Source: a virus. Taken from it: a stretch of 64,000 bases of DNA. The stretch covers positions 243,841 to 307,840 of the IMG/VR virus record IMGVR_UViG_3300041809_000571, one strand, 5' to 3'. A model generated the notes under the pieces. That model searched no databases. It was given only the letters and a program-made list of their open reading frames with translations, and had not been told where the DNA came from. This document shows positions 1,777 through 63,069 of the stretch, piece by piece. Positions within the stretch are counted from its first letter, which is position 1, and the number at the start of each line of letters is the position of its first letter. Both the position numbers and the translations under genes were made by a program.

Positions 1777-4700
1777 TTACGCCTTCACGATGAACAAGTC
1801 AAGGTTCAGCCTTGTGACAGTTCCCGCAGAGTCTAGGTTGAACTCCAAGACATCTCCCGCCAAAAGAGAGGTGGTCCATGTCCCGATGTTAGTGCTGGTA
1901 TTAAACTGTTGAGGTCCTGTTAGATTTGGCGGGGCAGAAGCTACGATGCTGACAGTAGTAGGGAGCGATGCATAGGCACACTTCTTGACGGTAATCTGAG
2001 CAGTGCCGGAGGCATTCGCCAGCATAGTCCACCCAGTTATCGTGGCATTGTAAGGAACCTGTATGTACCCATACGAACCCGTTGAGGGGACTGACCCCTT
2101 CCCGTCGATAGTGAGCGTGATGATTTGATTCTGTGGAGAATATATCAGGACCACATTCTGCCAAGTCAACCCCGCAATGGTGGAGCCTGCAAAGCTGGAG
2201 ACATTGGCAATATCTTGAGCAATCCGCTGGGAAGGACCAGCCTCAAAAGCCATGCCGAGAATCGTTATCACTGGGGTTGTATTTGCGCAGTAAACTCCCG
2301 CAATCACGTTATCTGAACCGTCGCTATTGTTGAAGACCGTATTCCCGACGAGCTTTGTGTTCGAAGCGGCGGCAGCGATGTACCAACCATATTCCGTGGG
2401 GCTGTCAGCGTAGCAATTAGTCCAAGTACTGAATTGAGAGTTGTCGTAGAAACAAACAGCCATGGGGTTGGCGCTGGCCGGTGCTCCACCATAGGCATGG
2501 ATGTCGGTAAACCAGCAAGCACCTGTGTCGGTTCTGACACCCGTGGCGCATCCTACAATGACAGCAGTGTCAACACGATTGTCGGTAATAGCCCCCGTAC
2601 AGTATACTCCCGCACCAGCAGCGGTAGTCGCTGCATAAACATGGACATTTTCCAAATAGCATTCGAATCCACCCGACCCGTGAACCGGGAAGTCCGTAAT
2701 GTCCCCAATCAGGAAGCCATTGGTCGTTGGGTACTTAACGTAGGTGTCTTTGATGGTGAAGTGCCTGCACGAGCGTACATATACCCCATTTGCGGCCAAG
2801 GCATTGCAATTAATCACGCCCCCGACCATGTTTGTACCCGGAAGGTTGACTGCTACCGTAGGCCCGACGATTAGGACTGCGTCCATAGCAGAGGAAGCAA
2901 TGAGTTGTGCTCCGGGGTCCATGACTAGGTTAACATTGTAAGGTATGATGATATGACTGGCCAGCAGGAATTGACCGGCTGGGACATAGACAGTACCACC
3001 TGAACTGAATGCCGCTGCCGCTGTCATAGCTGCATTGAATGCGACAACGTTATCAGTGCTTCCGTTCCCCACAGCCCCGTAATTCAAGACGTTAAATGGG
3101 TAGTCTACGAGGGGGCCATTTGGCCCCGTCCACCCGGTGTAGCCTGTATATCCTGTGGGTCCGGTATAACCGGTAACTTGAGGTCCCGTATATCCTGTGT
3201 ATCCACTGATTCCCATAGGTCCCGTATAACCCGTGGGTCCGGTTCCTCCCGGTCCTGTCGGACTGGTATAACCCGTGGGTCCGGTTCCTCCCGGTCCTGT
3301 CGGACCGGTATATCCGATGTATCCTGTATAACCGGTATACCCGGAGTAACCGGTTGGTCCTGAGTAACCCGTGGCTCCGGTATAACCTGTGTAGGCTCCG
3401 GGTCCTGTATACCCGGTATAGCCTGTAAATGCTCCGGGGCCAGTGGGACCGAGGGGTCCAGTATATCCTGAATAACCAGTATAACCAGAGGTACCTGTAT
3501 ATCCAGTATAACCTGTAAAGTTACCGGGACCGGTGGGACCCGTTGGACCGGTGTAACCAGTAACACTCGGGCCTGTGTATCCGGTGTACCCACTCTGACC
3601 CGTATAACCGCTCGGACCTGTGAAACCTGTGCTGCCGGGTCCTGTGTACCCCGTAAAACCAGTGAAGTTGCCTACACCCGTGGGACCCGTGTAACCCGTG
3701 GCTCCATCCGCTCCTTGATGCCCGATAGGTCCGGTGTAACCGGTGTCGCCTTGGAATCCTCGATAACCGCTATAACCCGTGTATCCGGTGAAACCCGTAA
3801 AGTTACCGGGACCAGTTGGACCGGTTGAACCCGTGTACCCCGTAACGGCGGGTCCGGTGTAGCCAGTCGGCCCACTCGGGCCGGTGGGGCCGGAATACCC
3901 CGTATACCCTGTAATGGTGGGTCCAGTGTATCCGGTCGGTCCAATGGGTCCAGTCGGCCCTGAATACCCCGTAAAAGCTCCGGGGCCGGTAAATCCCGTG
4001 TATCCCGTAAAACCCGTGAAATTGCCCGGACCGGTGGGTCCGGTCGTACCTTGCGGTCCCGTGTACCCCGTCCAGCCTGTAAAGTTGCCGGGGCCGGTAT
4101 AGCCCGTAGCTCCACTATAGCCGGTGAATCCTGTGAAATTACCCGGACCGGTTGGACCGGTTGTACCAGTCGGTCCAGTATACCCCGTTATCGAGGGTCC
4201 AGTGTATCCTGTGTAACCGGTTCTTCCGGTGTAACCGGTGTAACCCGAGTAACCGGTAAAATTGCCCGGACCGGTTGCTCCCGTATATCCGCTGTATCCC
4301 GTAGCTCCCGTGAAATTCCCCGGACCGGTAGGTCCTGTAGCCCCCGAATATCCCGTAAATCCTGTGAAATTTCCGGGTCCAGTCGGACCGGTGTAGCCGC
4401 TCGTTCCCGTGTAACCCGTATAACCTGTAAATGCTCCGGGACCAGTGTATCCCGTATATCCAGTGATACTGGGGCCGGTGTAACCGGTGACCCCCGCCGT
4501 CCCGGCTCTGCCGGTGTACCCGGTAGCTCCCGTGGGTCCCTGAAAACCTTGATACCCGCTGTAACCTGTGGCTCCCGTGGCTCCGGTATAACCCGTAAAA
4601 TTACCGGGACCCGTGGGGCCGGTTGCCCCGGTCGGTCCCAAATTTCCGCTATAGCCGGTATAGCCCGTGAAATTACCGGGACCCGTCACCCCCGTGTACC

Positions 4701-5556
4701 CTGTAAACCCTGTGAAATTCCCCGGCCCGGTGGGGCCGGTGAACCCACTGGCTCCCGTAAAACCCGTATACCCGGTTGCTTGTGGTCCCGTATAGCCCGT
4801 GAAGCCTGTGTACCCCGTGCTCTCAGGTCCAGTATAGCCGGTATACCCAGTTGGCCCAATCGGTCCTGTATACCCTGAATATCCGGTAAAATTGCCCGGA
4901 CCGGTGGGTCCCTGCTGACCGGTGTACCCGGTCATTCCGGTGTAACCCGTGTCCCCGCTATAACCTGTAAACCCTGTGTATCCAGTGAAGTTCCCCGGTC
5001 CCGTGGGTCCAATTGAACCAACAGGCCCGGTGTACCCAGTAAAACCCGTGAAGTTTCCGGGGCCAGTGGGGCCGCTGTCCCCCGTATAGCCCGTGAAACC
5101 GGTAAAATTGCCCGGTCCAGTAGGTCCGGTCGTTCCTGTATATCCTGTTATGCCGGGTCCAGTAGGTCCGGTCGGCCCAGAATCACCCGTGTAGCCGGTC
5201 GGACCCGAATATCCGGTAAAATTGCCCGGACCGGTGTAACCCGTGAAACCGCTGGGGCCGCTGTAGCCGGTATACCCTGTAAAGTTTCCCGGTCCTGTGG
5301 CACCGAGCGGGCCGGTGGGTCCGGTCGTGCCGGTCACACTTTGGGCAATAAGACCCCACCACGTGGAGCCGACGAAGGGGGTGTTACCCCGGTTGTTGTT
5401 CTGGAGAGAAATCCACGAGGAACCGTTGTAAGTGAGGGCGTTGCCAAACTGATAGGTGATGGTATTATTCCACGGCTTCACATACGTGACGAGGATGCCG
5501 TCGATAGTGAAAACGGAGTTGGGGCTGACCGGGTCTATGACTCTGATAGCTGGCAT
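1777..5556 (-). CDS. Collagen-like repeat tail fiber with C-terminal pectate-lyase-like right-handed beta-helix (putative depolymerase fiber)
   Basis: 1259 aa. About 780 aa of G-X-T triplets ([13 protein letters not shown] units), then a C-terminal [42 protein letters not shown] stretch typical of the Pectate_lyase_3 / tailspike beta-helix. The nucleotide sequence is highly repetitive (ccggtaaaattgcccggaccggt units). Confidence 0.8.
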
Positions 5557-7454: not shown

Positions 7455-7531
7455 TGGAGCGGGCGATGGGATTTGAACCCACGACATCCAGCTTGGGAAG
7501 CTGGCGTTCTACCGGACTGAACTACACCCGC
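7455..7531 (-). tRNA. tRNA-Gly(CCC), solitary, CCA encoded
   Basis: Hand-folded cloverleaf: acceptor GCGGGUG/CGCCCGC, D-stem GUUC/GAAC, anticodon arm CCAGC-UUCCCAA-GCUGG, T-arm GUGGG-UUCAAAU-CCCAU, U73, CCA. Confidence 0.7.
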
Positions 7532-8955: not shown

Positions 8956-9696
8956 ATTGGTTCTCCTTTTGAGTTGGTGCGTGACTCACGTTCTAACGCC
9001 ACGGCGTAGTGAGCGCAAACAGAGGGAGTTGCCGCCCGCTCCAGTGGCTCGGTAAAAGAGTTACTAGCTCGGCTCCCATTGCTGAGTAAATCCGTGGTCA
9101 AGCAGCGCTGATTCGCATCACGCACCAAGCTATAATACTGAAAATTTTGTGGACCTATAAGCGGAGTTCTGTGCCTCTTGCGAGGTGACAACCATTCGTC
9201 TAGGGCGGCCATTACTGGACGCCTCAAGCTCTCAACCCGAGGGTTATAGCGAACCGAGCAGGTTCATCCCCTCCTATTCGAGATTGCTCCCCGTGAAGAT
9301 TGCCCGTTTCACCCGGACTTAACCGGCTCGTCTCTGTTGCTCTAATTGTCGCAGTATTGCTACTGCGCCGGGGCGTTACCCCGCACGGTGCTCTGTGTAG
9401 CTCCGACTTTCCTCTCCCCCTTGCGGGGCAGTAGTTGTCCAGTCCACAAACTTTTTCCAAACTTAGGGTTATTGGGAGCGAAGATTCCCTTGGAGCCATC
9501 CGGGTCAAGGGCCTTCAAGGTCAGATAATAACTCATGCTCCCAATGCTCACGCCGTCACCTTACACCCACAAGGTTCATAATCCTGTTGCCAGCCGGGCG
9601 GTATACTCTTCATCCACCCCTTGACCTTGACCCTTACGGTACATGGCTTTTTGTGCTTACGGTGTTTGCATTTAGAACATTTGGCGGAGGCCATAC

Positions 9697-11066: not shown

Positions 11067-11156
11067 AAAATTCCCCCTTAAAATAAATTCTTCTTCCTAT
11101 AACCACTTTGAAAGTCTAAACTTTCAATCTCTTTGGACAGGAGGCATATCAGACCT

Positions 11157-11606
11157 ATGTCCAAAAGATTAACCTACGCTTATACGGCAGGACTCATTGA
11201 CGGCGAGGGGACCATATCTCTCGTTTACAAGTACAAAAGCAATCCCTACCGCTGGCCGACCATAACCGTGCCAAGCTGCACAAAGGAACTCACCGACTTC
11301 CTGAAAAATCAATTTGGCGGGTGTATCTCCAACAAGAGGCCGGACAAGGTGGGACATACACCCTCAAAGACATGGCGACTCGCCGGGGACAAATCCTTAG
11401 CACTTCTTAATCTACTCCTTCCTTACCTTAAGGAACCCGATAAGATAAGGCGGGCAAAGTTGCTGATTGATAAATACAAGAGGTTGACGCCAAGGAATGG
11501 AAGGTACACTACGGAACAACGTATCAAAAAGTTGGAATTCGAGCATCAGTTCTTGGAGGGAGGAAAGACGAGCCGACAGACCACCCGTATACGCTGGGCA
11601 AGTTAG
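11157..11606 (+). CDS. LAGLIDADG homing endonuclease (single-motif, I-CreI-like size)
   Basis: LTYAYTAGLIDGEGTISL motif. ATG at 11157 follows GGAGG; the ORF-track start at 11133 is TTG. The stop lies 2 nt from the tmRNA 3' end on the opposite strand. Confidence 0.75.
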   Translation: MSKRLTYAYTAGLIDGEGTISLVYKYKSNPYRWPTITVPSCTKELTDFLKNQFGGCISNKRPDKVGHTPSKTWRLAGDKSLALLNLLLPYLKEPDKIRRAKLLIDKYKRLTPRNGRYTTEQRIKKLEFEHQFLEGGKTSRQTTRIRWAS

Positions 11607-11607
11607 T

Positions 11608-11961
11608 TGGTGGAGGCGACGGGGAGTTGAACCCCGTGTCCGAAAAGTGTCACAACAAGAAGACTACACGCTTATCCTGCTTCGTACTGCTCTTTGCCAT
11701 GACTCTGCTGAAACAGGCATATCAGAACCACGGTGCAAGCCTTCATCTCGCCGGATATCGGCTACATCCCCGGTCGCAGCCTCTCTATCGGCGCTTGGCC
11801 TCTACCCGACAGGCTAAAGCAGAGCAAGCGTGCCTAATCTAGCGATTAAGCAAATGCATATTGCGCTGTGGCAATTGCGTTGTTAACCCTTGTTACGGGC
11901 AGGGTAACCTCCCGGCGTGCCTTCCTGTAATGAGCGCTCCCGTCGAAACCAGAACGCCCCC
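11608..11961 (-). ncRNA. ssrA: tmRNA (ssrA-like transfer-messenger RNA), about 354 nt, CCA encoded
   Basis: Minus-strand 5' end GGGGGCGUUCUGGUUUCGACGGGA matches the tmRNA consensus GGGGnUGAUUCUGGAUUCGACGGG. The 3' end GGACACGGGGUUCAACUCCCCGUCGCCUCCACCA is a tRNA-Ala-like T-arm/acceptor with G3:U70, A73 and CCA. A candidate internal tag frame reads AAC AAC GCA AUU GCC ACA GCG CAA UAU GCA UUU GCU UAA (...NNAIATAQYAFA*). Confidence 0.8.
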
Positions 11962-11963
11962 AC

Positions 11964-11980
11964 ACTTACATAATACCACC
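11964..11980 (-). promoter_or_regulatory. Extended -10-like promoter motif GGTGGTATTATGTAAGT, 3 to 19 nt upstream of the tmRNA 5' end
   Basis: TGG-TATTAT sits immediately 5' of the mature tmRNA 5' end, and the same motif family recurs at other gene starts. Confidence 0.5.
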
Positions 11981-12006: not shown

Positions 12007-12100
12007 TTGGTCCCGGTGTTGGGAGTCAAACCCAATCCATGCCCTAATCTGGGGCTTATGCAGTTTATAAGACTGCTCGTTCGGTCGCAAACTTCACCGG
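12007..12100 (-). tRNA. tRNA-like, type II (long variable arm), isotype undetermined (anticodon loop CUUAUAA, UAU?)
   Basis: Acceptor CCCGGUG/CACCGGG, T-arm UUGGG-UUUGACU-CCCAA, A73-CCA, variable arm GCCC-CAGAUUA-GGGC, anticodon stem GCAGU/ACUGC. The D-arm folds poorly by hand. Confidence 0.4.
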
Positions 12101-12104
12101 GGAA

Positions 12105-12181
12105 TTGGCACCGTGGACGGGACTTGAACCCGCTAATGACCGGCTTGAAGGGCCGGTGACTCGGCGCTTTGTCTTCCACGG
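12105..12181 (-). tRNA. tRNA-Glu(UUC)-like (anticodon loop CCUUCAA, C at position 33)
   Basis: Acceptor ACCGUGG/CCACGGU, T-arm GCGGG-UUCAAGU-CCCGU, G73-CCA, anticodon stem CCGGC/GCCGG. Confidence 0.5.
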
Positions 12182-12185
12182 TATC

Positions 12186-12260
12186 TTGGTAGCCCTGCCG
12201 GGACTCTAACCCGGTTCCGCTGGTTGAAAGCCAGCCATCCTAAACCATAGACGACAAGGC
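12186..12260 (-). tRNA. tRNA-Glu(UUC)
   Basis: Acceptor GGCCUUG/CAGGGCU (two G-U pairs), anticodon arm GCUGG-CUUUCAA-CCAGC, T-arm CCGGG-UUAGAGU-CCCGG, A73-CCA. The D-arm resembles E. coli tRNA-Glu. Confidence 0.6.
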
Positions 12261-12412
12261 CAGAAATTTGAGGCTGCGAAATATCCACGTTTGGGAGTAC
12301 AAGGACCGGTAGCAGCCTCGGTTTATCGGTACCCACTACGTGGCTCAGTTTAGACCGCCGTCCTGATACGACCACGATTGAAACCTGCGGTCAAGGTGTA
12401 TCGTGGCCTCGC

Positions 12413-12487
12413 TTGGAGCACCCGGAGAGAATCGAACTCCCGCATAAAGGGTTTGCAGCCCTCTCCCTTCCCACTTGGGTACGAGTG
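12413..12487 (-). tRNA. tRNA-Cys(GCA)
   Basis: Acceptor GCACUCG/CGGGUGC, anticodon arm GAGGG-CUGCAAA-CCCUU, T-arm GGGAG-UUCGAUU-CUCUC, U73 (Cys identity element), CCA. Confidence 0.7.
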
Positions 12488-12570
12488 CAAATTTGGCTCG
12501 CCTACCACTCTCTCAGTGGCTTTGAACCGTGCGGGCAGCTTTCACCGCCGCAGGCTATCTGGCTCGCAAT

Positions 12571-12645
12571 GTGGAGCACCTGAACGGAATCGAACCGTTG
12601 CATAGCTGTTTTGCAGACAGCCGCCTTTCCACTTGGCGACAGGTG
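12571..12645 (-). tRNA. tRNA-Cys(GCA), second divergent copy
   Basis: Acceptor GCACCUG/CAGGUGC, anticodon arm GCUGU-CUGCAAA-ACAGC, T-arm AACGG-UUCGAUU-CCGUU, U73-CCA. Confidence 0.7.
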
Positions 12646-12647
12646 CG

Positions 12648-12881
12648 TTATTCTTCTTCCTCAGCCGACTCCTTACTTAGGTCCACCGGCTGGCGAATCT
12701 TGGCAATCTTTCTTTCGGTGGATACGGAGAGTCTCACGTACTCCACTCGTGCCCAATGGACGGTGTGAACCGCCATCCACCCGACCACCACCCATTTAGA
12801 AAAGATGGTGAAAATCCTGTCGGGGTTGATGCTTATAAACCAAAGCACCACGCACATAAACCAATGCCACAAAGAAATCAT
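12648..12881 (-). CDS. small hydrophobic protein (2 predicted TM helices) embedded in the tRNA array
   Basis: 77-aa ORF MISLWHWFMCVVLWFISI...FTIFSKWVVVGWMAVHTV with a GGGAGG RBS 4 nt upstream. It sits exactly in the gap between tRNA-Cys and tRNA-Glu. Confidence 0.35.
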   Translation of the reverse strand: MISLWHWFMCVVLWFISINPDRIFTIFSKWVVVGWMAVHTVHWARVEYVRLSVSTERKIAKIRQPVDLSKESAEEEE

Positions 12882-12931
12882 CTAGCCTCCCGTCATGCAG
12901 TGTGTTCCCCCAAAGCATGGCGGGGGTGAAA

Positions 12932-13008
12932 CTGGTAGCCCCGGTGGGATTCAAACCCACGGTCTCCGCCTTGAGAGGGCGGCGTCCTTGGTCGCTAGAC
13001 GACGAGGC
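12932..13008 (-). tRNA. tRNA-Glu(CUC)
   Basis: Acceptor GGCCUCG/CGGGGCU, anticodon arm CCGCC-CUCUCAA-GGCGG, T-arm GUGGG-UUUGAAU-CCCAC, A73-CCA. Confidence 0.65.
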
Positions 13009-13079
13009 CATGTCTTAGCAGGGCACGACTGGCTACGATGAGTTTATGTCAGCGGGAAGCCTGATTCTGTGCCCTAAGT

Positions 13080-13155
13080 TTGGTGGACGGGAAGGGAGTT
13101 GAACCCTCAGTCTCTCGGGTGCGAGCCGAGCGCTTTCCCAGTTAAGCTACCTGCC
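13080..13155 (-). tRNA. tRNA-Ala(CGC)
   Basis: Acceptor GGGCAGG/CCCGUCC with G3:U70 (Ala identity) and one A5-C68 mismatch, D-stem GCUU/AAGC, anticodon arm CUCGG-CUCGCAC-CCGAG, T-arm GAGGG-UUCAACU-CCCUU, A73-CCA. Confidence 0.65.
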
Positions 13156-13160
13156 CAAAT

Positions 13161-13290
13161 GCAATCGTGGAGGGAATCGAACCCTCTCTCCTGTTGCAGC
13201 CTGCAAGCCGCTACAGTTCTTCCCCCCGTTACTTCCAAAGCCAGACAGCCTTCGGTCTTGCAGGACCTATTGCCATCTCGGGGGCTGAAA
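13161..13290 (-). ncRNA. Unresolved structured RNA with a perfect tRNA T-arm (GAGGG-UUCGAUU-CCCUC at 13169..13185) but no identifiable 7-bp acceptor partner or encoded CCA
   Basis: The T-arm is seen directly. Searches for a 5' acceptor strand complementary to CACGAUU failed, so this may be a type-II, intron-containing or degenerate tRNA. Confidence 0.3.
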
Positions 13291-13291
13291 C

Positions 13292-13367
13292 TTGGTGCGC
13301 CGAGCAGGACTCGAACCTGCGACCTCTTCCGTGTCAGGGAAGCGCTCTAACCACTGAGCTACCAGCG
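13292..13367 (-). tRNA. tRNA-Val(GAC)
   Basis: Acceptor GCGCUGG/UCGGCGC, D-arm GCUC-AGUGGUUA-GAGC, anticodon arm CUUCC-CUGACAC-GGAAG, T-arm GCAGG-UUCGAGU-CCUGC, A73-CCA. Confidence 0.7.
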
Positions 13368-13468
13368 CAAACGCATGGATTTCCCTACGGTCGCCTAGAC
13401 CCCGTCTGTTTATGTACTGCTTTGCGGGGCACTGCTACTGGTTAGCTCGCTACTAGGGCCATGCGTAA

Positions 13469-13546
13469 AATGGCGGTCCATACGGGATTTGAACCCGTGG
13501 TCTTCTCCGTGACAGGGAGACGAGGACTCCAGACTCCTCCAATAGA
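13469..13546 (-). tRNA. tRNA-Asp(GUC)
   Basis: Acceptor GGUCUAU/AUGGACC, D-stem GAGG/CCUC, anticodon arm UCUCC-CUGUCAC-GGAGA, T-arm ACGGG-UUCAAAU-CCCGU, G73 (Asp-type), CCA. Confidence 0.7.
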
Positions 13547-13552
13547 CCGAAA

Positions 13553-13631
13553 CTTGGCGGTGAGTACGGGATTTGAACCCGTGTTTCTACCGTGACAGGG
13601 TAGTGTCTTAGGCCGGGCTAGACCAACCCAC
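13553..13631 (-). tRNA. tRNA-Asp(GUC), second divergent copy in tandem
   Basis: Acceptor GGUGGGU/ACUCACC, anticodon arm CUACC-CUGUCAC-GGUAG, T-arm ACGGG-UUCAAAU-CCCGU, G73-CCA. Confidence 0.65.
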
Positions 13632-13723
13632 CGTAATCGGACCCTATTAACCCGCTCATGGGCGGAGGCTTTCGCCGGGGCGGCACATAGCACAAATACT
13701 ATCCCGTTCGTATGCCGCTAAAC

Positions 13724-13798
13724 TTGGTGGACCTAAAGGGAATCGGACCCTTGACCTCTCGGCTGCCGACCGAGCGCTCTCCCGCTGAGCTACAGGCC
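13724..13798 (-). tRNA. tRNA-Ala(GGC) (C at position 33)
   Basis: Acceptor GGGCCUG/UAGGUCC with G3:U70, D-arm GCUC-AGCGGGA-GAGC, anticodon arm CUCGG-UCGGCAG-CCGAG, T-arm AAGGG-UCCGAUU-CCCUU, A73-CCA. Confidence 0.55.
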
Positions 13799-13960
13799 CA
13801 CAAAAATTCGGGACAACCGGCTGGTTAGGCTAGTCATCCGCAGGTTCTACTGCTCGGGGTCCCTTTTCAGGGGAACCACCACAGTCCCCCTTACTGAGGG
13901 ACCCTGCTGGTAGAACCTCGCCACTCGTCAGCTTCGACAGCCCTTAGAGTGACTACAATC

Positions 13961-14034
13961 TTGGAGCGGGTGACGGGACTCGAACCCGTCTCTACAGCTT
14001 GGAAGGCTGCGGCACAACCTCTATACCACACCCG
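13961..14034 (-). tRNA. tRNA-Gly(UCC)
   Basis: Perfect acceptor GCGGGUG/CACCCGC, anticodon arm GCAGC-CUUCCAA-GCUGU, T-arm ACGGG-UUCGAGU-CCCGU, U73-CCA. Confidence 0.7.
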
Positions 14035-14125
14035 CAAATCTTGTGAGGACATTGACGCAGCCCCCTGTTTACGTTGACCGGCGTGTCAGAGCCGGTGTCC
14101 TGCCGCTGGACCTCAGCGGACTTAC

Positions 14126-14199
14126 TTGGTGGAGCTACGGGGATTTGAACCCCGATTCCTTGCGTGCAAGGCAAGTGTCCTGCCGTTAGACGATAGTCC
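14126..14199 (-). tRNA. tRNA-Ala(UGC)
   Basis: Acceptor GGGACUA/UAGCUCC with G3:U70 and one A4-C69 mismatch, anticodon arm CUUGC-CUUGCAC-GCAAG, T-arm CGGGG-UUCAAAU-CCCCG, A73-CCA. Confidence 0.55.
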
Positions 14200-14204
14200 C
14201 AAAC

Positions 14205-14279
14205 TTGGAGCGGGCGGTGGGGTTCGGACCCACGACCTCTTCCTTGGCAAGGAAGCATTCTACCACTGAACTACGCCCG
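14205..14279 (-). tRNA. tRNA-Gly(GCC)
   Basis: Perfect acceptor GCGGGCG/CGCCCGC, D-arm GUUC-AGUGGUA-GAAU, anticodon arm CUUCC-UUGCCAA-GGAAG, T-arm GUGGG-UCCGAAC-CCCAC, U73-CCA. The overall sequence closely resembles E. coli tRNA-Gly(GCC). Confidence 0.75.
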
Positions 14280-14351
14280 CAAACCGCCAAGTAGGTTCTT
14301 AACCAATATGCATCGGGTCTTGGACCGTTCCTGCATTACCCTTGGCGAAAT

Positions 14352-14430
14352 ATGGTGCGCCGTGAAGGAATTGGACCTTCGACCTCTCGCTTGTGGAGCG
14401 AGCGCTCTAAACCGGGCTGAGCTAACAGCG
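14352..14430 (-). tRNA. tRNA-Val(CAC) (C at position 33; long D-loop)
   Basis: Acceptor GCGCUGU/ACGGCGC, D-arm GCUC-AGCCCGGUUUA-GAGC, anticodon arm CUCGC-UCCACAA-GCGAG, T-arm GAAGG-UCCAAUU-CCUUC, A73-CCA. Confidence 0.55.
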
Positions 14431-14438
14431 CATCGAAC

Positions 14439-14513
14439 TTGGTACCCACTGAGAGAATCGAACTCCCGACATCCTCCTTGTAAGAGAGGCGGTCTTCCAC
14501 TGGCCTAAGCGGG
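14439..14513 (-). tRNA. tRNA-Val(UAC)
   Basis: Acceptor GCCCGCU/AGUGGGU (two G-U pairs), anticodon arm CCUCU-CUUACAA-GGAGG, T-arm GGGAG-UUCGAUU-CUCUC, A73-CCA. Confidence 0.6.
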
Positions 14514-14526
14514 CAAATCTTGTACT

Positions 14527-14706: not shown

Positions 14707-14882
14707 TAGTTCAAAAACTTCAAAAATTTGCGATAGACTTGACGGCGGCTCACTTGCGGGCGTGCAACCAAAGCTGCCTTGGTCTCCCGGTTGGCTCCGG
14801 TCTCACATTCTTATCTGCGAGTCTCCCCTACCAAGTTCCCTTGGCTTCATCCGGGGTATCTTCGGCCCCGACTACGGAGCCT

Positions 14883-14902
14883 CCGTCAAGTCTCTCACTT
14901 AC
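14883..14902 (-). promoter_or_regulatory. Extended -10-like motif CGTGGTATAATGTAAGTGAG (minus strand)
   Basis: TGG-TATAAT, nearly identical to the motif upstream of the tmRNA and of the 9909 gene. Confidence 0.45.
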
Positions 14903-14917
14903 ATTATACCACGAAAT

Positions 14918-15229
14918 TCAGGATTTTGAGGAAAAAAGTTTTCCTTCCTTCGCCCGGATGACATGCTCTCGGAGGTCATTCACCCTGTAGACCCCATACA
15001 TCCACAAAACACCTTGAATAAACCCTATCCACCGATTGACCTTAGCCTCATCATAATGCTCGGCTTTAGTGCCGTTGGCGTAGTTGAACATCTCCTCCAC
15101 CATCCACGCAGCGTGACGGGCCTGCTCGATACCGGGGTGAGGGCTTTTCGGCTCACCCTCAAGCCGTTGGGGCAATATCCACAATCGTTGGAACTCGCTC
15201 CGGTAGAACTCTAACAATTGGTATTCCAC
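14918..15229 (-). CDS. hypothetical protein
   Basis: 103-aa ORF. Its N-terminal 70 nt overlap the NADAR gene, so the true start may be the internal Met (MVEEMF...) near 15103. Confidence 0.35.
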   Translation of the reverse strand: MEYQLLEFYRSEFQRLWILPQRLEGEPKSPHPGIEQARHAAWMVEEMFNYANGTKAEHYDEAKVNRWIGFIQGVLWMYGVYRVNDLREHVIRAKEGKLFSSKS

Positions 15230-15683
15230 CCTGTGCCTCCGCTCGTATGAGCATCAAAATCTTACCTAAGTAGTTGTATTTCTGTTTCTTAGCACACTTG
15301 GCACAAAGGCAAATGCCCCAAAAATTATCGTGCCAATAATTGGTTTCCTCCAACACCATATAGCCGGTTCCCACCAGCTTGAGAAGGAGGAAAGTGTTCC
15401 TAAACTTCTGCCGGACGAGTTCCTCCATGATGTTAATGTTTACACTGTACCAAAGCGGCCACAGATGCCCAGCTTTGGTCAGTTTTTTGGCGAGCTTCTT
15501 TGCTTCGCCGGGGGTCATCCCGACAGCCCGGAACTGCTCCCGGATAGTGGGGTCAAGGAACTTGGCGGCTTGATAGGCGTGCTCTACCGAGGCGTACTCC
15601 AGCCCGTACAGATACACCGGGCAGGGGTAGTAGAAATTGGAACAGAAATCGAGAACCCCGGAGAACGCTATATCACGCCACAT
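15159..15683 (-). CDS. NADAR-domain protein (YbiA/DUF1768 family)
   Basis: Diagnostic NADAR motifs: FCSNFYYPCPVYLYGLEYASVEHAYQAAKF and EETNYWHDNFWGICLC...KYNYLGKILMLIRAE. Confidence 0.8.
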   Translation of the reverse strand: MWRDIAFSGVLDFCSNFYYPCPVYLYGLEYASVEHAYQAAKFLDPTIREQFRAVGMTPGEAKKLAKKLTKAGHLWPLWYSVNINIMEELVRQKFRNTFLLLKLVGTGYMVLEETNYWHDNFWGICLCAKCAKKQKYNYLGKILMLIRAEAQGGIPIVRVLPERVPTIVDIAPTA

Positions 15684-60537: not shown

Positions 60538-63069
60538 ATGAGTGTAAAGACCAAGACAGCCTACATTTCGCCGACGTTTGCTACGCTGGAGATTTCAGCG
60601 ATGCACACAGGTTTGTCTCCCACCGCTTCCATTGTCCTCGATTTAGGAATCCCCAAGTTCACCACGTTCTCCATCAAGTTCCCCATCCCCGAGGAGACCC
60701 AAGCTTTTCAACAGGTCGCCAGTGAGGCACTGGGGGTTATGTTGGATGAGATGACCGCCTTCATGATATCGGTGGGCTACAAGAAAGAAGTCATCGCCAA
60801 GATTTATGCCCTCACGCTAGCCTGCTACAAGGATTTGGTCGCCAATGACCACCCGGAGAATCGGGAGAAGGACCCCAGTATTGGCTCCGTGCGGGGAGAG
60901 TTTCAAATCCCTGCGGACTTCATCAATGAGACCCAGCGGTATGTGGTGACAGCGGGTAAGAAGGTAGACCGCAGCCCCCGGCAGCGCCGGGTGGAGATTG
61001 TCCCCAAGCGTCCGGTCAACCCCTCCAAGAACGATGTTCTCAAGGCTATCCGGCGCTATCGCTTCCAAAGCATTAAGAGTCAGCCGTTCCCCTTATACCT
61101 CGTGGTCTATGACAACATGGGACAACCCAAGGGTACGCTGACACTGGGGCCGGGCTTCCACAATGAGCTTTTGAAGATGCAGTACAAAAAGAAAGGGGCT
61201 GACCAAGACCCCAACCAAGCCTACAAAGACGCTGTAAGGGCCGGTGGAGGCGTTTGGAAGGGCATCGGAGAGAACGGTCTTGGCGGGTGGATGGTTTATT
61301 TCGATAACGCTGCTACCCGGTCAACCCTCACTTTGGATACCACGGAAGTGACGCCCGAGGCGGTCGCAGCCAAAATTAAGTTGAATCAGGATGCCACGGA
61401 TGAACGAAGGAAGAAAATGGCCGGTCAGTGGGGACCTCGTTCCTATGATGGTGATTCTATTCACGATATATTAGACAGGCATCGGCCCGGATATGACGAC
61501 GTGGGAGACCGGGAGCATTTGGGTTTTGATGAACCCATCCCCGAGGAGCAGTTGCCGTCCCTGTACAAAGAGATTGAGGCACTGGACCTCAGCCAGCCGG
61601 ACATGATGCAGAACTACGTGGGCGTGGTAGTGTTTCTCATAGAGCATGGCACGCTGGTCCCCGATACTCTTCGCCACAAAGCGGCAGAGCTTGCCACGGC
61701 ACTTCTCACCGGCACCAAAGGCGGCGGGCCGGGCGGAGCCGACGAGCGGGGGTGGAAGCTTTGGAAAGACCCAGAGGAGCGCAAGCAGCGGCTTCGGGAG
61801 GAGATTGCCCTCTTGAGCAAGGGTTCTCTCGCCAAGGAAGCACGTTTCCTCCGCATTGATGAGATGCAGGCTTGGGGGACGGGCAAACAGGATGAGTATT
61901 ATGCTCAACACCCGGAGCTTGGCAGTCCGGGAAAGAAGCTGAATCTCATGGTCACCGAGCCGGACGGAACCTCCACTCCGTTAGCTAAAGCGGTGAAGGC
62001 GGACTACGGCCCTGACGCCCGGCGCTGTCCTGAGTGTGGCTCCTCCAATGTTCATACGGTCCCGCACGTGCGAGGCGATGTGACGCATTGTGACGATTGC
62101 CAGCACGAGGCCCACACCTCGTGGTTTAAGGGAGCGGCGGTTCACCCGGAGTATGGGGATAACACCGCTGCCGTAGAAGCCAACCGGCCTTTAGTCGCCA
62201 AGACAAACCTCGAACTTGCGGCGAAGGAGGGTATTGAAACTAAGGGGGAAAGCCTTGTTCTTTACCATGGCACCCGGAGCGCAATCAAGATACGGAATTC
62301 CGGGGTATTTCCCATCGGCACGTACTTTGCCACGACGGAAAAGGAAGCATGGCAGTGGGCTTTGTCGGCTTCCCCGCAGAAGAACCGGGCGGTAGTGCTG
62401 AAAGTCTTGGTGCCAGCGGGCACGGTGTTCCCCAGTGGAGGTGGTGTGAGGTATTTCAGCACTAACGAGCAGATTCCCTACCGTCCCATAGGGGAGCCTA
62501 AGACCGCCGACTATTACGACGAGCAGGGTTTCTGGGCCGGTGAGGGCGGCGGAGCCTCGGGGATTCTCCCGGTCTGCACTACAACGGGTCGTATTTGCTT
62601 TGCATGGCGGTCTCCCGAGGTCCAACAGGGTTCCTGCTGGGGAACTATCGGCGGAGCCATCCAGAGGGGTATGCAGCCCGGTGAGAGCGCCAAAGAGGAA
62701 CTCTGGGAGGAGACGGGGTACAGCGGAGGCATGACCCTCCATCCCGCCTACGTGTTCCAAAGTGGGACATTTCGTTACTTTAACTTCATCGGTGAGACGG
62801 CACAGGAATTCGACTTCCAGCCTCAAAGTGATGCCGTATGGGAGACCGAAGGATTAGAGTGGTTTACACTCCCGCAGGTCCGGGAGTACATGGCAAAAAG
62901 TCCCCATGAGTTTCACAGTGGGGTAATAGCCCTGTTCAAGAATTCGGGGAAGCTTATCGAGCAGATTTGTGCGAAGGCAGCCCCCAAGAAGGGAAAAGGC
63001 GATGGAAAACCAAGCAAGGTTAGAGAGTCCAGCACTGGTAAAGCTCCGGGAGCAGGCGGCACAGCTTAA
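60538..63069 (+). CDS. Multidomain protein: N-terminal unknown region, Zn-ribbon, PARP/diphtheria-toxin-like (H-Y-E class) ADP-ribosyltransferase domain, C-terminal Nudix-like domain
   Basis: LVLYHGTRSAIKIRNSGVF (the H-G-T/S motif of H-Y-E ARTs), GTYFATTEKEA (the Y-F-A motif, compare PARP GIYFADMVSKSANY) and VRYFSTNEQIPY (compare PARP YNEYIVY catalytic Glu) lie at about 62230..62500. The Nudix-like box GGAIQRGMQPGESAKEELWEETGY (REUxEExGU-like, R replaced by E) lies at 62651..62722, and the Zn-ribbon CPECGSS...HCDDCQ at about 62020..62115. Confidence 0.5.
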   Translation: MSVKTKTAYISPTFATLEISAMHTGLSPTASIVLDLGIPKFTTFSIKFPIPEETQAFQQVASEALGVMLDEMTAFMISVGYKKEVIAKIYALTLACYKDLVANDHPENREKDPSIGSVRGEFQIPADFINETQRYVVTAGKKVDRSPRQRRVEIVPKRPVNPSKNDVLKAIRRYRFQSIKSQPFPLYLVVYDNMGQPKGTLTLGPGFHNELLKMQYKKKGADQDPNQAYKDAVRAGGGVWKGIGENGLGGWMVYFDNAATRSTLTLDTTEVTPEAVAAKIKLNQDATDERRKKMAGQWGPRSYDGDSIHDILDRHRPGYDDVGDREHLGFDEPIPEEQLPSLYKEIEALDLSQPDMMQNYVGVVVFLIEHGTLVPDTLRHKAAELATALLTGTKGGGPGGADERGWKLWKDPEERKQRLREEIALLSKGSLAKEARFLRIDEMQAWGTGKQDEYYAQHPELGSPGKKLNLMVTEPDGTSTPLAKAVKADYGPDARRCPECGSSNVHTVPHVRGDVTHCDDCQHEAHTSWFKGAAVHPEYGDNTAAVEANRPLVAKTNLELAAKEGIETKGESLVLYHGTRSAIKIRNSGVFPIGTYFATTEKEAWQWALSASPQKNRAVVLKVLVPAGTVFPSGGGVRYFSTNEQIPYRPIGEPKTADYYDEQGFWAGEGGGASGILPVCTTTGRICFAWRSPEVQQGSCWGTIGGAIQRGMQPGESAKEELWEETGYSGGMTLHPAYVFQSGTFRYFNFIGETAQEFDFQPQSDAVWETEGLEWFTLPQVREYMAKSPHEFHSGVIALFKNSGKLIEQICAKAAPKKGKGDGKPSKVRESSTGKAPGAGGTA

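What the first reader, a model, noticed from the sequence alone, without database searches (positions are those of the whole stretch)
12007..14513. tRNA array covers every GNN codon box (Gly, Ala, Val, Asp, Glu) plus Cys with multiple isoacceptors, and little else
The anticodons I could fold by hand are:
- Gly: UCC, GCC, and CCC (the CCC copy is the solitary tRNA at 7455).
- Ala: UGC, GGC, CGC, all with G3:U70.
- Val: UAC, GAC, CAC.
- Asp: GUC, two copies.
- Glu: UUC (two copies), CUC.
- Cys: GCA, two copies.
That is a complete decoding set for all 16 GNN codons (U34, G34 and C34 isoacceptors) plus UGY. I found no tRNAs for the other boxes among the resolved genes. The duplicated Asp, Cys and Glu copies differ strongly in sequence, which points to separate acquisitions or selection for distinct identities. 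Such a biased, self-sufficient set suggests either compensation for a host whose GNN-decoding tRNAs are limiting or attacked, or support for the extreme Gly/Thr/Ala/Val usage of the giant fiber genes.
Basis: seen in the sequence. Interest (0 to 1): 0.7.

Follow-up and report, generated by a model that had tools for sequence, protein, structure and literature searches.

The report
Sorted GNN tRNA block, huge phage
A giant soil phage has a conserved block of tRNA genes that reads every codon starting with G, plus cysteine, but a second block for Ile, Thr and Gln lies just outside the window, so the phage is not limited to those codons.

Summary
ARAGORN and Rfam find 15 canonical tRNAs in the window, all on the minus strand. 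They carry all 12 U34/G34/C34 anticodons for the GNN codons (Val, Ala, Gly, Asp, Glu), with Asp duplicated, plus two Cys-GCA. Two non-canonical tRNA-like genes sit next to them (UUC; UAU with a long extra arm), then a phage tmRNA and a phage RNase P RNA.

The same anticodon set recurs in at least 12 related huge-phage contigs (RNR 67-97% identical) with shuffled gene order. None of 60 unrelated phage arrays of 10 or more tRNAs exceeds 50% GNN+Cys.

The reading of a "biased, self-sufficient set" fails for the genome as a whole. The window is part of a 364-kb contig. A second cluster lies 3.7 kb past the window's end (Ile-GAU x2, Thr-CGU/GGU x2/UGU, Gln-UUG x2) and is conserved in relatives. Codon usage does not single out GNN (33% of codons); Thr, Leu and Ser each exceed Asp and Glu, and Cys is the rarest residue.

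The array is therefore one sorted module of a distributed phage tRNA complement. Both clusters vary far more in sequence than their flanks, yet keep their anticodon content. Why the GNN decoders are kept together is unresolved. About 72% of the genome was not seen.

The parts
14440..14514 (-). tRNA-Val(UAC), first gene of the array
   Evidence: ARAGORN; Rfam 55.4 bits. A strong terminator-like hairpin lies just upstream at 14559-14536.
14353..14431 (-). tRNA-Val(CAC), with C33 in place of U33 (loop UCCACAA)
   Evidence: ARAGORN; Rfam 58.9 bits; loop
14206..14280 (-). tRNA-Gly(GCC)
   Evidence: ARAGORN; Rfam 68.6 bits
14127..14200 (-). tRNA-Ala(UGC), G3:U70, A73
   Evidence: ARAGORN; Rfam 57.8 bits; acceptor stem read
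13962..14035 (-). tRNA-Gly(UCC)
   Evidence: ARAGORN; Rfam 56.5 bits
13800..13961 (-). Structured spacer module. A 99% identical copy sits in a different tRNA context in L207-type phages.
   Evidence: Fold z-score -3.5. blastn: 99.4% to L207 4445-4603, 81% to L005 16350-16507. Function unknown.
13725..13799 (-). tRNA-Ala(GGC), G3:U70, C33 (loop UCGGCAG)
   Evidence: ARAGORN; Rfam 56.4 bits
13555..13632 (-). tRNA-Asp(GUC), copy 1
   Evidence: ARAGORN; Rfam 61.2 bits
13471..13548 (-). tRNA-Asp(GUC), copy 2, 73% identical to copy 1
   Evidence: ARAGORN; Rfam 55.2 bits; identity
13293..13368 (-). tRNA-Val(GAC)
   Evidence: ARAGORN; Rfam 71.4 bits
13081..13156 (-). tRNA-Ala(CGC), G3:U70
   Evidence: ARAGORN; Rfam 61.1 bits
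12933..13009 (-). tRNA-Glu(CUC)
   Evidence: ARAGORN; Rfam 56.5 bits
12648..12881 (-). Small ORF (77 aa, hydrophobic N-terminus) inside the array
   Evidence: ORF list. Called as a gene on the contig (L001 16410-16643). The region is 76% identical in L005/L006. No Pfam hit.
12572..12646 (-). tRNA-Cys(GCA), copy 1, U73
   Evidence: ARAGORN; Rfam 62.2 bits
12414..12488 (-). tRNA-Cys(GCA), copy 2, 71% identical to copy 1
   Evidence: ARAGORN; Rfam 57.9 bits
12187..12261 (-). tRNA-Glu(UUC)
   Evidence: ARAGORN; Rfam 51.2 bits
12109..12183 (-). Non-canonical tRNA-like gene with a UUC anticodon loop (CCUUCAA here, CUUUCAA in relatives), a reduced D-arm, A1:U72 and an encoded CCA
   Evidence: Weak Rfam tRNA-Sec-like hit, 28.1 bits. 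Not called by ARAGORN even when relaxed. Conserved in L207 and L018, with 5 of 22 predicted pairs (4 in the anticodon stem, 1 in the acceptor stem) changed on both sides.
12008..12101 (-). tRNA-like gene with anticodon UAU (reads AUA), a long extra arm, an atypical D- and T-loop, A73 and an encoded CCA
   Evidence: Perfect cloverleaf with extra arm, z-score -3.4. ARAGORN calls Ile-UAU at the relaxed threshold. 87-88% identical in L018 and L004, loop CUUAUAA invariant, compensatory pairs present.
11608..11961 (-). Phage tmRNA; tag read as ATAQYAFA*
   Evidence: Rfam RF00023, 124.4 bits. 97.7% identical to the tmRNA of L042-L046, for which ARAGORN gives the tag ATAQYAFA. The motif GGTATTATGTAAGTG lies directly upstream.
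9142..9450 (-). Phage RNase P RNA, bacterial type A, without P13/P14
   Evidence: Rfam RF00010, 191.2 bits. The alignment keeps the P4 core (GAGGAAAGUC) and the L15 GGU motif; a 43-position stretch of the model is absent, read here as P13/P14. Conserved in relatives, where it lies inside the array.
7455..7531 (-). Solitary tRNA-Gly(CCC), which completes the GNN set
   Evidence: ARAGORN; Rfam 70.3 bits. 100% identical in L207-type phages.

Best explanation
The region is the GNN module of a distributed tRNA complement in a huge phage of about 364 kb from peat or soil.

Shown:
- 16 tRNA or tRNA-like genes lie in 2.5 kb, with Gly-CCC 4.5 kb away. All encode CCA, and bacterial identity elements are intact.
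- They give a full U34/G34/C34 decoder set for the 16 GNN codons, plus Cys and an AUA reader.
- They sit in one RNA island with a phage tmRNA and a phage RNase P RNA.
- A second, equally conserved cluster about 55 kb away supplies Ile-GAU, all three Thr isoacceptors and Gln-UUG.
- Both clusters are hypervariable cassettes. Between phages whose flanks are 89-98% identical, the tRNA genes are at most about 80% identical or unalignable, yet the anticodon content of each cluster is kept.

Inferred:
- The array is transcribed as a multi-gene precursor.
- 5' ends are cut by RNase P. The phage RNA keeps the CCA-binding L15 motif and presumably uses the host protein subunit.
- 3' ends are released at the A/U-rich CCA-AGUUU trailer and need no CCA addition.
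- The tRNAs are charged by host synthetases.
- Their job is to keep translation running independently of the host tRNA pool, whether that pool is limiting in a slow-growing host or depleted by shutoff or tRNA-targeting defences. tmRNA rescues ribosomes that still stall.
- Rapid sequence turnover with fixed anticodon content fits an arms race with such defences, or frequent cassette exchange between co-circulating phages.

The reason the GNN decoders are kept in one block is not established. Co-transcription as one unit in the non-structural gene module is my working guess.
For: - Anticodons and tRNA quality.
- Phage context and contig identity.
- The same 13 anticodon species in 12 relatives with shuffled order.
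- Background arrays are broad. The highest GNN+Cys fraction among 60 arrays of 10 or more tRNAs is 0.5.
- Second cluster on the same contig (L215 14320-15304, record 322850-323834).
- Its conservation in the same order in relatives whose neighbouring gene is 47-96% identical, including the contig that also carries cluster 1 (L003/L232).
- Segregation of GNN and non-GNN genes between the two clusters (14/3 against 0/8) gives an exact probability of 1.5e-4 (my arithmetic).
- Hypervariability against conserved flanks.
- RNase P RNA core and L15 motif. Its position between tRNA genes in relatives.
- CCA encoded in essentially all clade tRNA genes, followed by AG in about half.
- The only GenBank phage with detectable protein similarity, Tunturi_5, has 43 tRNAs for all 20 amino acids.
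- Published precedent that phage tRNAs neutralise tRNA-cleaving defences: PMC10264068, PMC11464382, PMC11555353.
Against: - Only about 101 kb of genome-equivalent sequence was seen (84 kb of the 364-kb contig itself, the rest on 96-100% identical relatives), so the full complement is unknown. If the two clusters are all there is, the set (Gly, Ala, Val, Asp, Glu, Cys, Ile, Thr, Gln) is still partial and unexplained.
- No promoter for the array was found.
- Expression, processing and charging are all inferred.
- The host is unknown. Two GTDB probes were uninformative, so supply and demand relative to the host could not be tested.
- The distant relative Tunturi_5 does not sort its GNN decoders together. 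The sorting therefore needs its own explanation, which I do not have.
Confidence: 0.68

Rival explanations
1. GNN-specific counter-defence. In the host, tRNAs with C36 (and tRNA-Cys) are selectively cleaved or inactivated during infection. The phage keeps a complete replacement set for exactly that class as one unit. A plausible basis is that GNN decoders are the only class without a bulky position-37 modification (t6A, m1G, i6A). An anticodon-loop nuclease blocked by such modifications would hit them by default.
For: - The block holds every C36 anticodon, including the redundant C34 species that other phages almost never carry.
- The exclusivity is conserved for as far as RNR similarity can trace it.
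- C33 replaces the near-universal U33 in 17 of 195 clade tRNAs, against 30 of 1374 in the background.
- The tRNA sequences turn over fast.
- The link to position 37 rests on established knowledge of bacterial tRNA modification, not on a test made here.
Against: - The phage also carries complete Thr and duplicated Ile and Gln sets elsewhere, so full isoacceptor sets are not peculiar to GNN.
- The second cluster is just as hypervariable.
- tRNA-Cys (A36) and the UAU gene (U36) do not fit the C36 rule.
- No nuclease with this specificity was found in the papers checked.
- The host and its defences are unknown.
Confidence: 0.12
2. Codon-demand compensation. The array boosts decoding of codons the phage uses heavily, especially in the Gly/Thr/Ala/Val-rich giant fibre genes, or that the host decodes poorly.
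For: Gly is the commonest residue (9.3% overall, 20.6% in the two fibre ORFs), and GNN is the largest first-base class at 33%.
Against: - 33% GNN is an ordinary figure (my own estimate; no comparison genome was analysed).
- ACC (Thr) is the top codon, and AAC, CAG, AUC, CCC and AAG are all used more than GUA, GCG or GCA, which do have dedicated genes.
- Cys is the rarest residue but has two genes.
- Glu is 0.7% in the fibres.
- Compensation would call for U34 or rare-codon species only, not all three isoacceptors.
Confidence: 0.06
3. The GNN grouping is a historical accident with no function of its own. An ancestral block happened to hold these genes. Recombination shuffles and replaces cassettes within a block but rarely moves them between blocks.
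For: - Spacer and tRNA modules are exchanged within the array: 99% and 96% identical spacers occur in different tRNA contexts.
- The two clusters never mix across relatives.
- Broader relatives group tRNAs by family (Thr x3, Ala x3, Leu x4), which suggests local duplication and inertia.
Against: - Placing all 13 GNN species in one block of 15 out of an assumed 45 genes has a chance of about 1e-9 (my arithmetic).
- Within the block the families are interleaved, not grouped by duplication.
- Near-identical phages differ in the tRNA sequences but never in the class, which argues for selection on content.
Confidence: 0.12

Closest known systems
tRNA islands of jumbo and huge phages, e.g. Tunturiibacter phage Tunturi_5 (PP885688, 43 tRNAs; PMC11924767) and the huge phages of Al-Shayeb et al. 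2020 (PMC7162821)
   Same: - Large phage genome with dense clusters of canonical, CCA-encoding tRNA genes interspersed with small ORFs and a homing-endonuclease-like gene.
- C34 isoacceptors are present.
- A tmRNA is present, as reported for huge phages.
- Tunturi_5 is the only GenBank phage with detectable protein similarity to the window (32% over a tape-measure-like ORF).
   Different: - Tunturi_5 holds 41 of its 43 tRNAs in one island of about 25 kb with GNN decoders mixed among the others. No RNase P RNA or tmRNA was found in the 74 kb examined.
- Here the genes are split into at least two clusters about 55 kb apart that never mix. One of them is exclusively GNN plus Cys.
- An RNase P RNA gene is part of the island here.
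Anti-defence tRNAs of T5 and T4-like phages (tRNA-Lys against PARIS, PMC11464382; tRNA-Tyr against retron and Septu effectors, PMC11555353, PMC13096335; anticodon-loop escape mutations, PMC10264068)
   Same: - Phage tRNAs that duplicate host decoding capacity.
- Fast-evolving tRNA regions.
- A homing-endonuclease-like ORF in the tRNA region (11133-11606), as with SegB in T4/T6.
- Some unusual anticodon loops (C33).
   Different: - In those cases a single tRNA matches a known nuclease target.
- Here a whole codon class is covered, and no cognate nuclease, host or escape mutation has been identified.
tRNA array units of bacteria, plasmids and mycobacteriophages (PMC4758250, PMC5966550)
   Same: High tRNA gene density (6.4 per kb here), location on a mobile element, mosaic evolution.
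   Different: - The published definition needs at least 20 tRNA genes; this array has 16.
- Those units carry broad isotype sets, not a single codon class.

Membership tests
Phage-encoded tRNA gene cluster | Several genes that fold and score as canonical tRNAs, closely spaced on one strand | tested here: met
   14 canonical tRNAs in 12187-14514 plus one at 7455-7531. ARAGORN; Rfam 51-71 bits against a gathering score of 29.
Phage-encoded tRNA gene cluster | The replicon is a phage | tested here: met
   - DnaB-like helicase, endolysin/lytic tail protein and metallophosphoesterase PHROGs.
- Baseplate_J (faint) and SLT domains on the contig.
- Tape-measure-like similarity to Tunturi_5.
- 94 relatives among IMG/VR viral contigs.
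- No rRNA in the window.
The call rests on these annotations only; no capsid or terminase gene was identified.
tRNA array unit (Tran et al. 2016, PMC4758250) | At least 20 tRNA genes at a density of at least 2 per kb | tested here: not met
   16 tRNA or tRNA-like genes in 2.5 kb. The density criterion is met (6.4 per kb); the number is not. The definition is taken from the abstract shown.
Anti-defence phage tRNA (PARIS, retron or PrrC-type escape) | A host tRNA-targeting nuclease whose substrates match the phage-encoded isoacceptors | not testable with these tools
   The host is unknown (uninformative). The papers checked report Lys, Tyr, Thr, Met and others as targets, never a GNN class.
Anti-defence phage tRNA (PARIS, retron or PrrC-type escape) | Anticodon stem-loop changes, relative to host tRNAs, that block cleavage | tested here: inconclusive
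   C33 occurs in 8.7% of clade tRNAs against 2.2% in other phage arrays. Most loops are standard bacterial ones (for example A32/U38 in Ala-GGC, U32/A38 in Gly). No host sequences were available for comparison.
Bacterial RNase P RNA, type A (RF00010) | Covariance-model score above the gathering threshold, with the P4 core and the L15 GGU motif | tested here: met
   191.2 bits against a gathering score of 100, over the full model span 1-367. GAGGAAAGUC and CGGGU are retained. A 43-position stretch of the model, read as P13/P14, is missing. Catalytic activity was not tested.
tmRNA (RF00023) | Covariance-model score above the gathering threshold, and a tag reading frame | tested here: met
   124.4 bits against a gathering score of 47. 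The tag ATAQYAFA* was read from the sequence and is called by ARAGORN in the 97.7% identical relatives.
tRNA-Ile(UAU) | Canonical class I tRNA body with a UAU anticodon and IleRS identity elements | tested here: inconclusive
   12008-12101 has loop CUUAUAA and A73, but also a long extra arm, no G18G19 and a UUUGACU T-loop. Which amino acid it accepts cannot be decided from sequence.

The most novel reading that the evidence does not exclude
The phage keeps all decoders of G-starting codons, its own RNase P RNA and tmRNA as one separately controlled unit because that class of tRNA behaves differently during infection. GNN decoders lack a bulky position-37 modification. Either the host selectively destroys them, or only they work straight after transcription without slow host modification. 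The block would then be a switch or lifeline for one third of all codons.
Probability: 0.12. Interest if true: 0.8.

Novelty: new variant of a known kind. Interest (0 to 1): 0.45.

Why it matters
Phage tRNA clusters are usually described as mixed sets explained by codon compensation or by escape from one nuclease. This clade differs in three ways.
- The tRNA complement is partitioned into stable, class-pure modules. One holds every GNN decoder.
- The sequences inside the modules are replaced far faster than the surrounding genes, while the anticodon content is fixed.
- The island carries its own RNase P RNA. I found no report of that in phages. One study that ran Rfam on megaphages found only tRNAs and a tmRNA (PMC8172020).

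If the sorting reflects regulation or defence, it gives a concrete system for asking how phages manage tRNA supply. If it is historical, it still shows selection acting on anticodon content and not on tRNA sequence.

For the scan itself, the lesson is that the apparent GNN-only bias is an effect of the window's edge.

Tried and rejected
1. Spacers as hidden tRNAs. ARAGORN with introns allowed and thresholds at 85% adds only the UAU gene. The T-arm-like GAGGGTTCGATTCCCTC at about 13170-13190 is not part of a detectable tRNA.
2. An exact-match search for the window in IMG/VR found nothing.
3. Walking the 364-kb contig. One window ORF with the wrong start was not on record.
These were reused as the background sample. 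Two- and three-tRNA patterns were tested on held loci and dropped as not clade-specific.
5. The vWA-like neighbour as an anchor found only near-identical phages.
6. Flank walks through relatives found no tRNAs for about 21 kb beyond cluster 1 or about 23 kb beyond cluster 2.
7. Host identification. A Gly-GCC probe gave no GTDB match. A Thr-GGU probe gave one archaeal MAG, judged uninformative.
8. Demand model. Codon and amino-acid counts do not favour GNN or Cys.
9. Literature. No nuclease with GNN specificity and no phage RNase P RNA report were found in the held library. That is absence in this library, not proof of absence.
10. The sigma-70 promoter scan found no more sites than shuffled sequence, and none for the array.

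Full report
**What is there.** ARAGORN finds 15 tRNA genes in the window, all on the minus strand. Fourteen lie between 12187 and 14514, and one (Gly-CCC) at 7455-7531. Rfam confirms all 15 at 51-71 bits against a gathering score of 29.
- The anticodons are Val UAC/GAC/CAC, Ala UGC/GGC/CGC, Gly UCC/GCC/CCC, Asp GUC (two genes), Glu UUC and CUC, and Cys GCA (two genes).
- That is every U34, G34 and C34 anticodon able to read a GNN codon, plus Cys.
- All genes encode CCA.
- Identity elements are standard: the three Ala genes have G3:U70 and A73, Gly and Cys have U73, Asp has G73.
- The duplicated Asp and Cys genes are 73% and 71% identical.

**Two further genes** lie between the array and the tmRNA.
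ARAGORN does not accept it even at relaxed thresholds, and Rfam gives only a weak tRNA-Sec-like hit. It is conserved in L207 and L018. Five of 22 predicted pairs changed on both sides, four of them in the anticodon stem. The loop is CUUUCAA in the relatives and CCUUCAA here. It is a non-canonical tRNA-like gene with a UUC anticodon.
- 12008-12101 folds into a clean cloverleaf with a long extra arm, loop CUUAUAA (anticodon UAU), A73 and CCA. It lacks G18G19 and has an odd T-loop. It is 87-88% identical in L018 and L004, and the loop is invariant even in the more distant L031.
- The spacers hold no further tRNAs.

**Surroundings.** The array ends at a tmRNA (11608-11961, 124 bits). An RNase P RNA of bacterial type A lies at 9142-9450 (191 bits).
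- The RNase P RNA keeps the P4 core and the L15 GGU motif that pairs with CCA. A 43-position stretch of the model, read here as P13/P14, is missing.
- The window belongs to ENA contig ERZ27249816:k141_1180871, 364,142 bp. Window position equals record position minus 255,175.
- The gene content is phage-like.
- The only GenBank phage with protein similarity is the Acidobacteriota jumbo phage Tunturi_5.

**Conservation.** The class II ribonucleotide reductase 3 kb from the array recovered 80 IMG/VR loci.
- In every relative where an array follows the RNR (identity 67-97%), it again contains only Val, Ala, Gly, Asp, Glu and Cys genes. A subclade also has the UAU gene and tmRNA. These relatives include contigs of 332, 456 and 463 kb.
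- Two Rfam-only hits turned out to be one more Cys-GCA and one more Glu-UUC.
- The only exceptions are one atypical Phe-GAA (L022) and one likely false positive (L010).
- Across 12 complete arrays, nearly all of the 13 anticodon species are present in each, while gene order differs.
- In the more distant members the RNase P RNA lies inside the array between Cys and Gly-UCC. In L009 the gaps are about 6 nt on each side.

**Background.** A generic pattern scan returned 120 unrelated phage tRNA arrays.
- Of their 1374 tRNAs, 22.9% decode GNN and 2.9% are Cys.
- Among 60 arrays with at least 10 tRNAs, the highest GNN+Cys fraction is 0.5.
- CAC, CCC and CGC anticodons occur 0, 0 and 1 times.
The clade's array is therefore unusual both in being exclusive and in being complete.

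**The decisive result.** I extended past the window's 3' end using window-encoded proteins.
- A second cluster lies on the plus strand at L215 14320-15304 (record 322,850-323,834), 3.7 kb beyond the window.
- It holds Ile-GAU x2, Thr-CGU, Thr-GGU x2, Thr-UGU and Gln-UUG x2.
- The same cluster, in the same order, lies downstream of the homologue of the 822-aa gene (window 60601-63069) in relatives 47-96% identical. One of these is the contig that also carries cluster 1 (L003/L232). A more distant version is in L122.
- No tRNAs lie in about 21 kb beyond cluster 1 or about 23 kb beyond cluster 2.
- About 101 kb of genome-equivalent sequence therefore holds exactly two clusters that never mix. About 84 kb of this was read on the contig itself and the rest on 96-100% identical relatives. 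For the contig in hand the split is 14 GNN and 3 other against 0 and 8, exact P = 1.5e-4.
- The remaining 263 kb or so could not be read.
- By analogy, Tunturi_5 has 43 tRNAs for all 20 amino acids, so more clusters are likely, but this is not shown.

I counted codons in 43 ORFs covering 56.8 kb.
- GNN codons are 33% of the total.
- Thr (9.1%), Leu (8.1%), Ser (7.7%), Pro (6.0%) and Asn (5.4%) all exceed Asp (4.7%) and Glu (4.1%).
- ACC is the most used codon.
- Cys is the rarest residue at 0.9%.
- The fibre ORFs are rich in Gly and Thr but have 0.7% Glu.
- Demand by the phage's own genes therefore does not explain this set, and the Thr genes are in the other cluster.
- A mild pattern exists. 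Structural genes, which cluster 2 follows on the same strand, use more Thr and Gln. The non-structural genes around cluster 1 use about twice as much Glu and Cys. I treat this as a hint only.
- For the attack hypothesis, the papers I could check describe nucleases aimed at Lys, Tyr, Thr, Met and others, not at a GNN class.

**An unexpected property.**
- Between the window and the L207-type phages the flanks are 94-98% identical, the tmRNA 97.8% and the RNase P RNA 93%. Most array tRNAs are at or below about 80% identical or give no blastn match.
- Cluster 2 behaves the same way against L217: flanks 89-96%, tRNAs at most 78%.
- Across 11 relatives, the best match of a window tRNA carries the same anticodon in only 93 of 165 comparisons. 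Yet the anticodon set is constant.
- Some spacers are 96-99% identical to spacers in a different tRNA context in other phages.
- C33 replaces U33 in 8.7% of clade tRNAs, against 2.2% in the background.
- Content is conserved while sequence is not. This fits cassette exchange, an arms race with tRNA-targeting defences, or both. The proposal that phage tRNAs escape such defences is published (PMC10264068).

**Verdict.**
The array is selected and non-random, but it is one module of a larger, sorted complement, not a GNN-only translation kit.
- The mechanism I commit to is ordinary supplementary decoding: multi-gene precursor, RNase P 5' cleavage helped by the phage's own RNA subunit, encoded CCA, host synthetases. 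Its effect is to make phage translation independent of the host tRNA pool.
- Why the GNN class is kept together remains open. I give 12% to a class-specific reason linked to the absence of bulky position-37 modification in these tRNAs.

Noticed in passing
window 9142-9450 (-); L009 17591-17911, L013 16318-16668, L019 16072-16370, L029 17190-17564, L004 19864-20177: The phage encodes a bacterial type A RNase P RNA (167-208 bits). In the window copy a 43-position stretch of the model, read as P13/P14, is missing. In distant relatives it lies inside the tRNA array between tRNA-Cys and tRNA-Gly(UCC), with gaps of about 6 nt in L009, as if released by tRNA processing. I found no report of an RNase P RNA in a phage in the held literature.
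   Followed up: partly
L215 14320-15304 (record 322850-323834, 3.7 kb past the window end): Second tRNA cluster on the plus strand: Ile-GAU x2, Thr-CGU, Thr-GGU x2, Thr-UGU, Gln-UUG x2. It is conserved in the same order in relatives (L228-L233).
   Followed up: yes
window 12300-14430 against L207 3200-7100; L215 14286-15323 against L217 5408-8257: Both tRNA clusters are hypervariable between phages whose flanking genes are 89-98% identical. The tRNA genes are replaced or diverged to 80% identity or less, while the anticodon content stays the same.
   Followed up: partly
window 11963-11977 (-) and 14896-14910 (-): The 15-nt motif GGTAT(A/T)ATGTAAGTG occurs twice (0.11 expected by chance). One copy lies directly upstream of the tmRNA. 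The other lies upstream of a roughly 150-nt stretch (14741-14890) that looks stem-closed by eye (not folded) and has no Rfam match or blastn homologue. It may be a phage promoter.
   Followed up: partly
window 11133-11606 (+): A 157-aa ORF with a LAGLIDADG-like motif (YTAGLIDGEGTISL, judged by eye) lies between the tmRNA and the next genes. It has no Pfam hit at E <= 0.01. It recalls the homing endonucleases found in the tRNA regions of T4-like phages.
   Followed up: no
window 11608-11961 (-); L005 18809-19172; L018 18574-18931: The phage tmRNA tags end in YAFA or YAMA (ATAQYAFA, ANMQYAFA, AEPLSMYAMA, AKPLAMYAMA), not in the usual LAA. Tagged proteins may therefore not be sent to ClpXP in the usual way.
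   Followed up: no
window 13800-13961 (-), 14036-14126 (-): Inter-tRNA spacers behave as movable modules. One is strongly structured (z-score -3.5) and 99% identical in L207, where it follows a different tRNA. The other is 96% identical in L005, again in a different context. Their function is unknown.
   Followed up: partly
window 14353-14431 and 13725-13799 (-); clade loci: C33 replaces the near-universal U33 in Val-CAC and Ala-GGC here, and in 17 of 195 clade tRNAs, against 30 of 1374 in other phage arrays.
   Followed up: partly
L122 7640-7717 and 8355-8431 (-); L047 17235-17310: More distant relatives carry tRNAs with a CUA anticodon (amber suppressors), which hints at stop-codon recoding in those phages. 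None was seen in the window or its extensions.
   Followed up: no
window 15159-15683 (-): A NADAR-domain protein (Pfam E = 5.5e-17) lies 0.6 kb upstream of the array. From my own knowledge, this family can reverse ADP-ribosylation, so it may be another counter-defence gene next to the RNA island.
   Followed up: no
window 1777-5556 (-): A 1259-aa ORF is built largely of collagen-like G-x-T/G-P-x repeats ([13 protein letters not shown]...) followed by a non-repetitive C-terminal region. It is a probable tail fibre and the source of the extreme Gly/Thr usage.
   Followed up: no
L018 10001-12778; L042-L046: The RNR gene of some relatives appears to be interrupted or truncated. The match spans 2.8 kb in L018, and only residues 1-341 match in L042-L046. 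An intein, intron or mobile insertion is possible.
   Followed up: no
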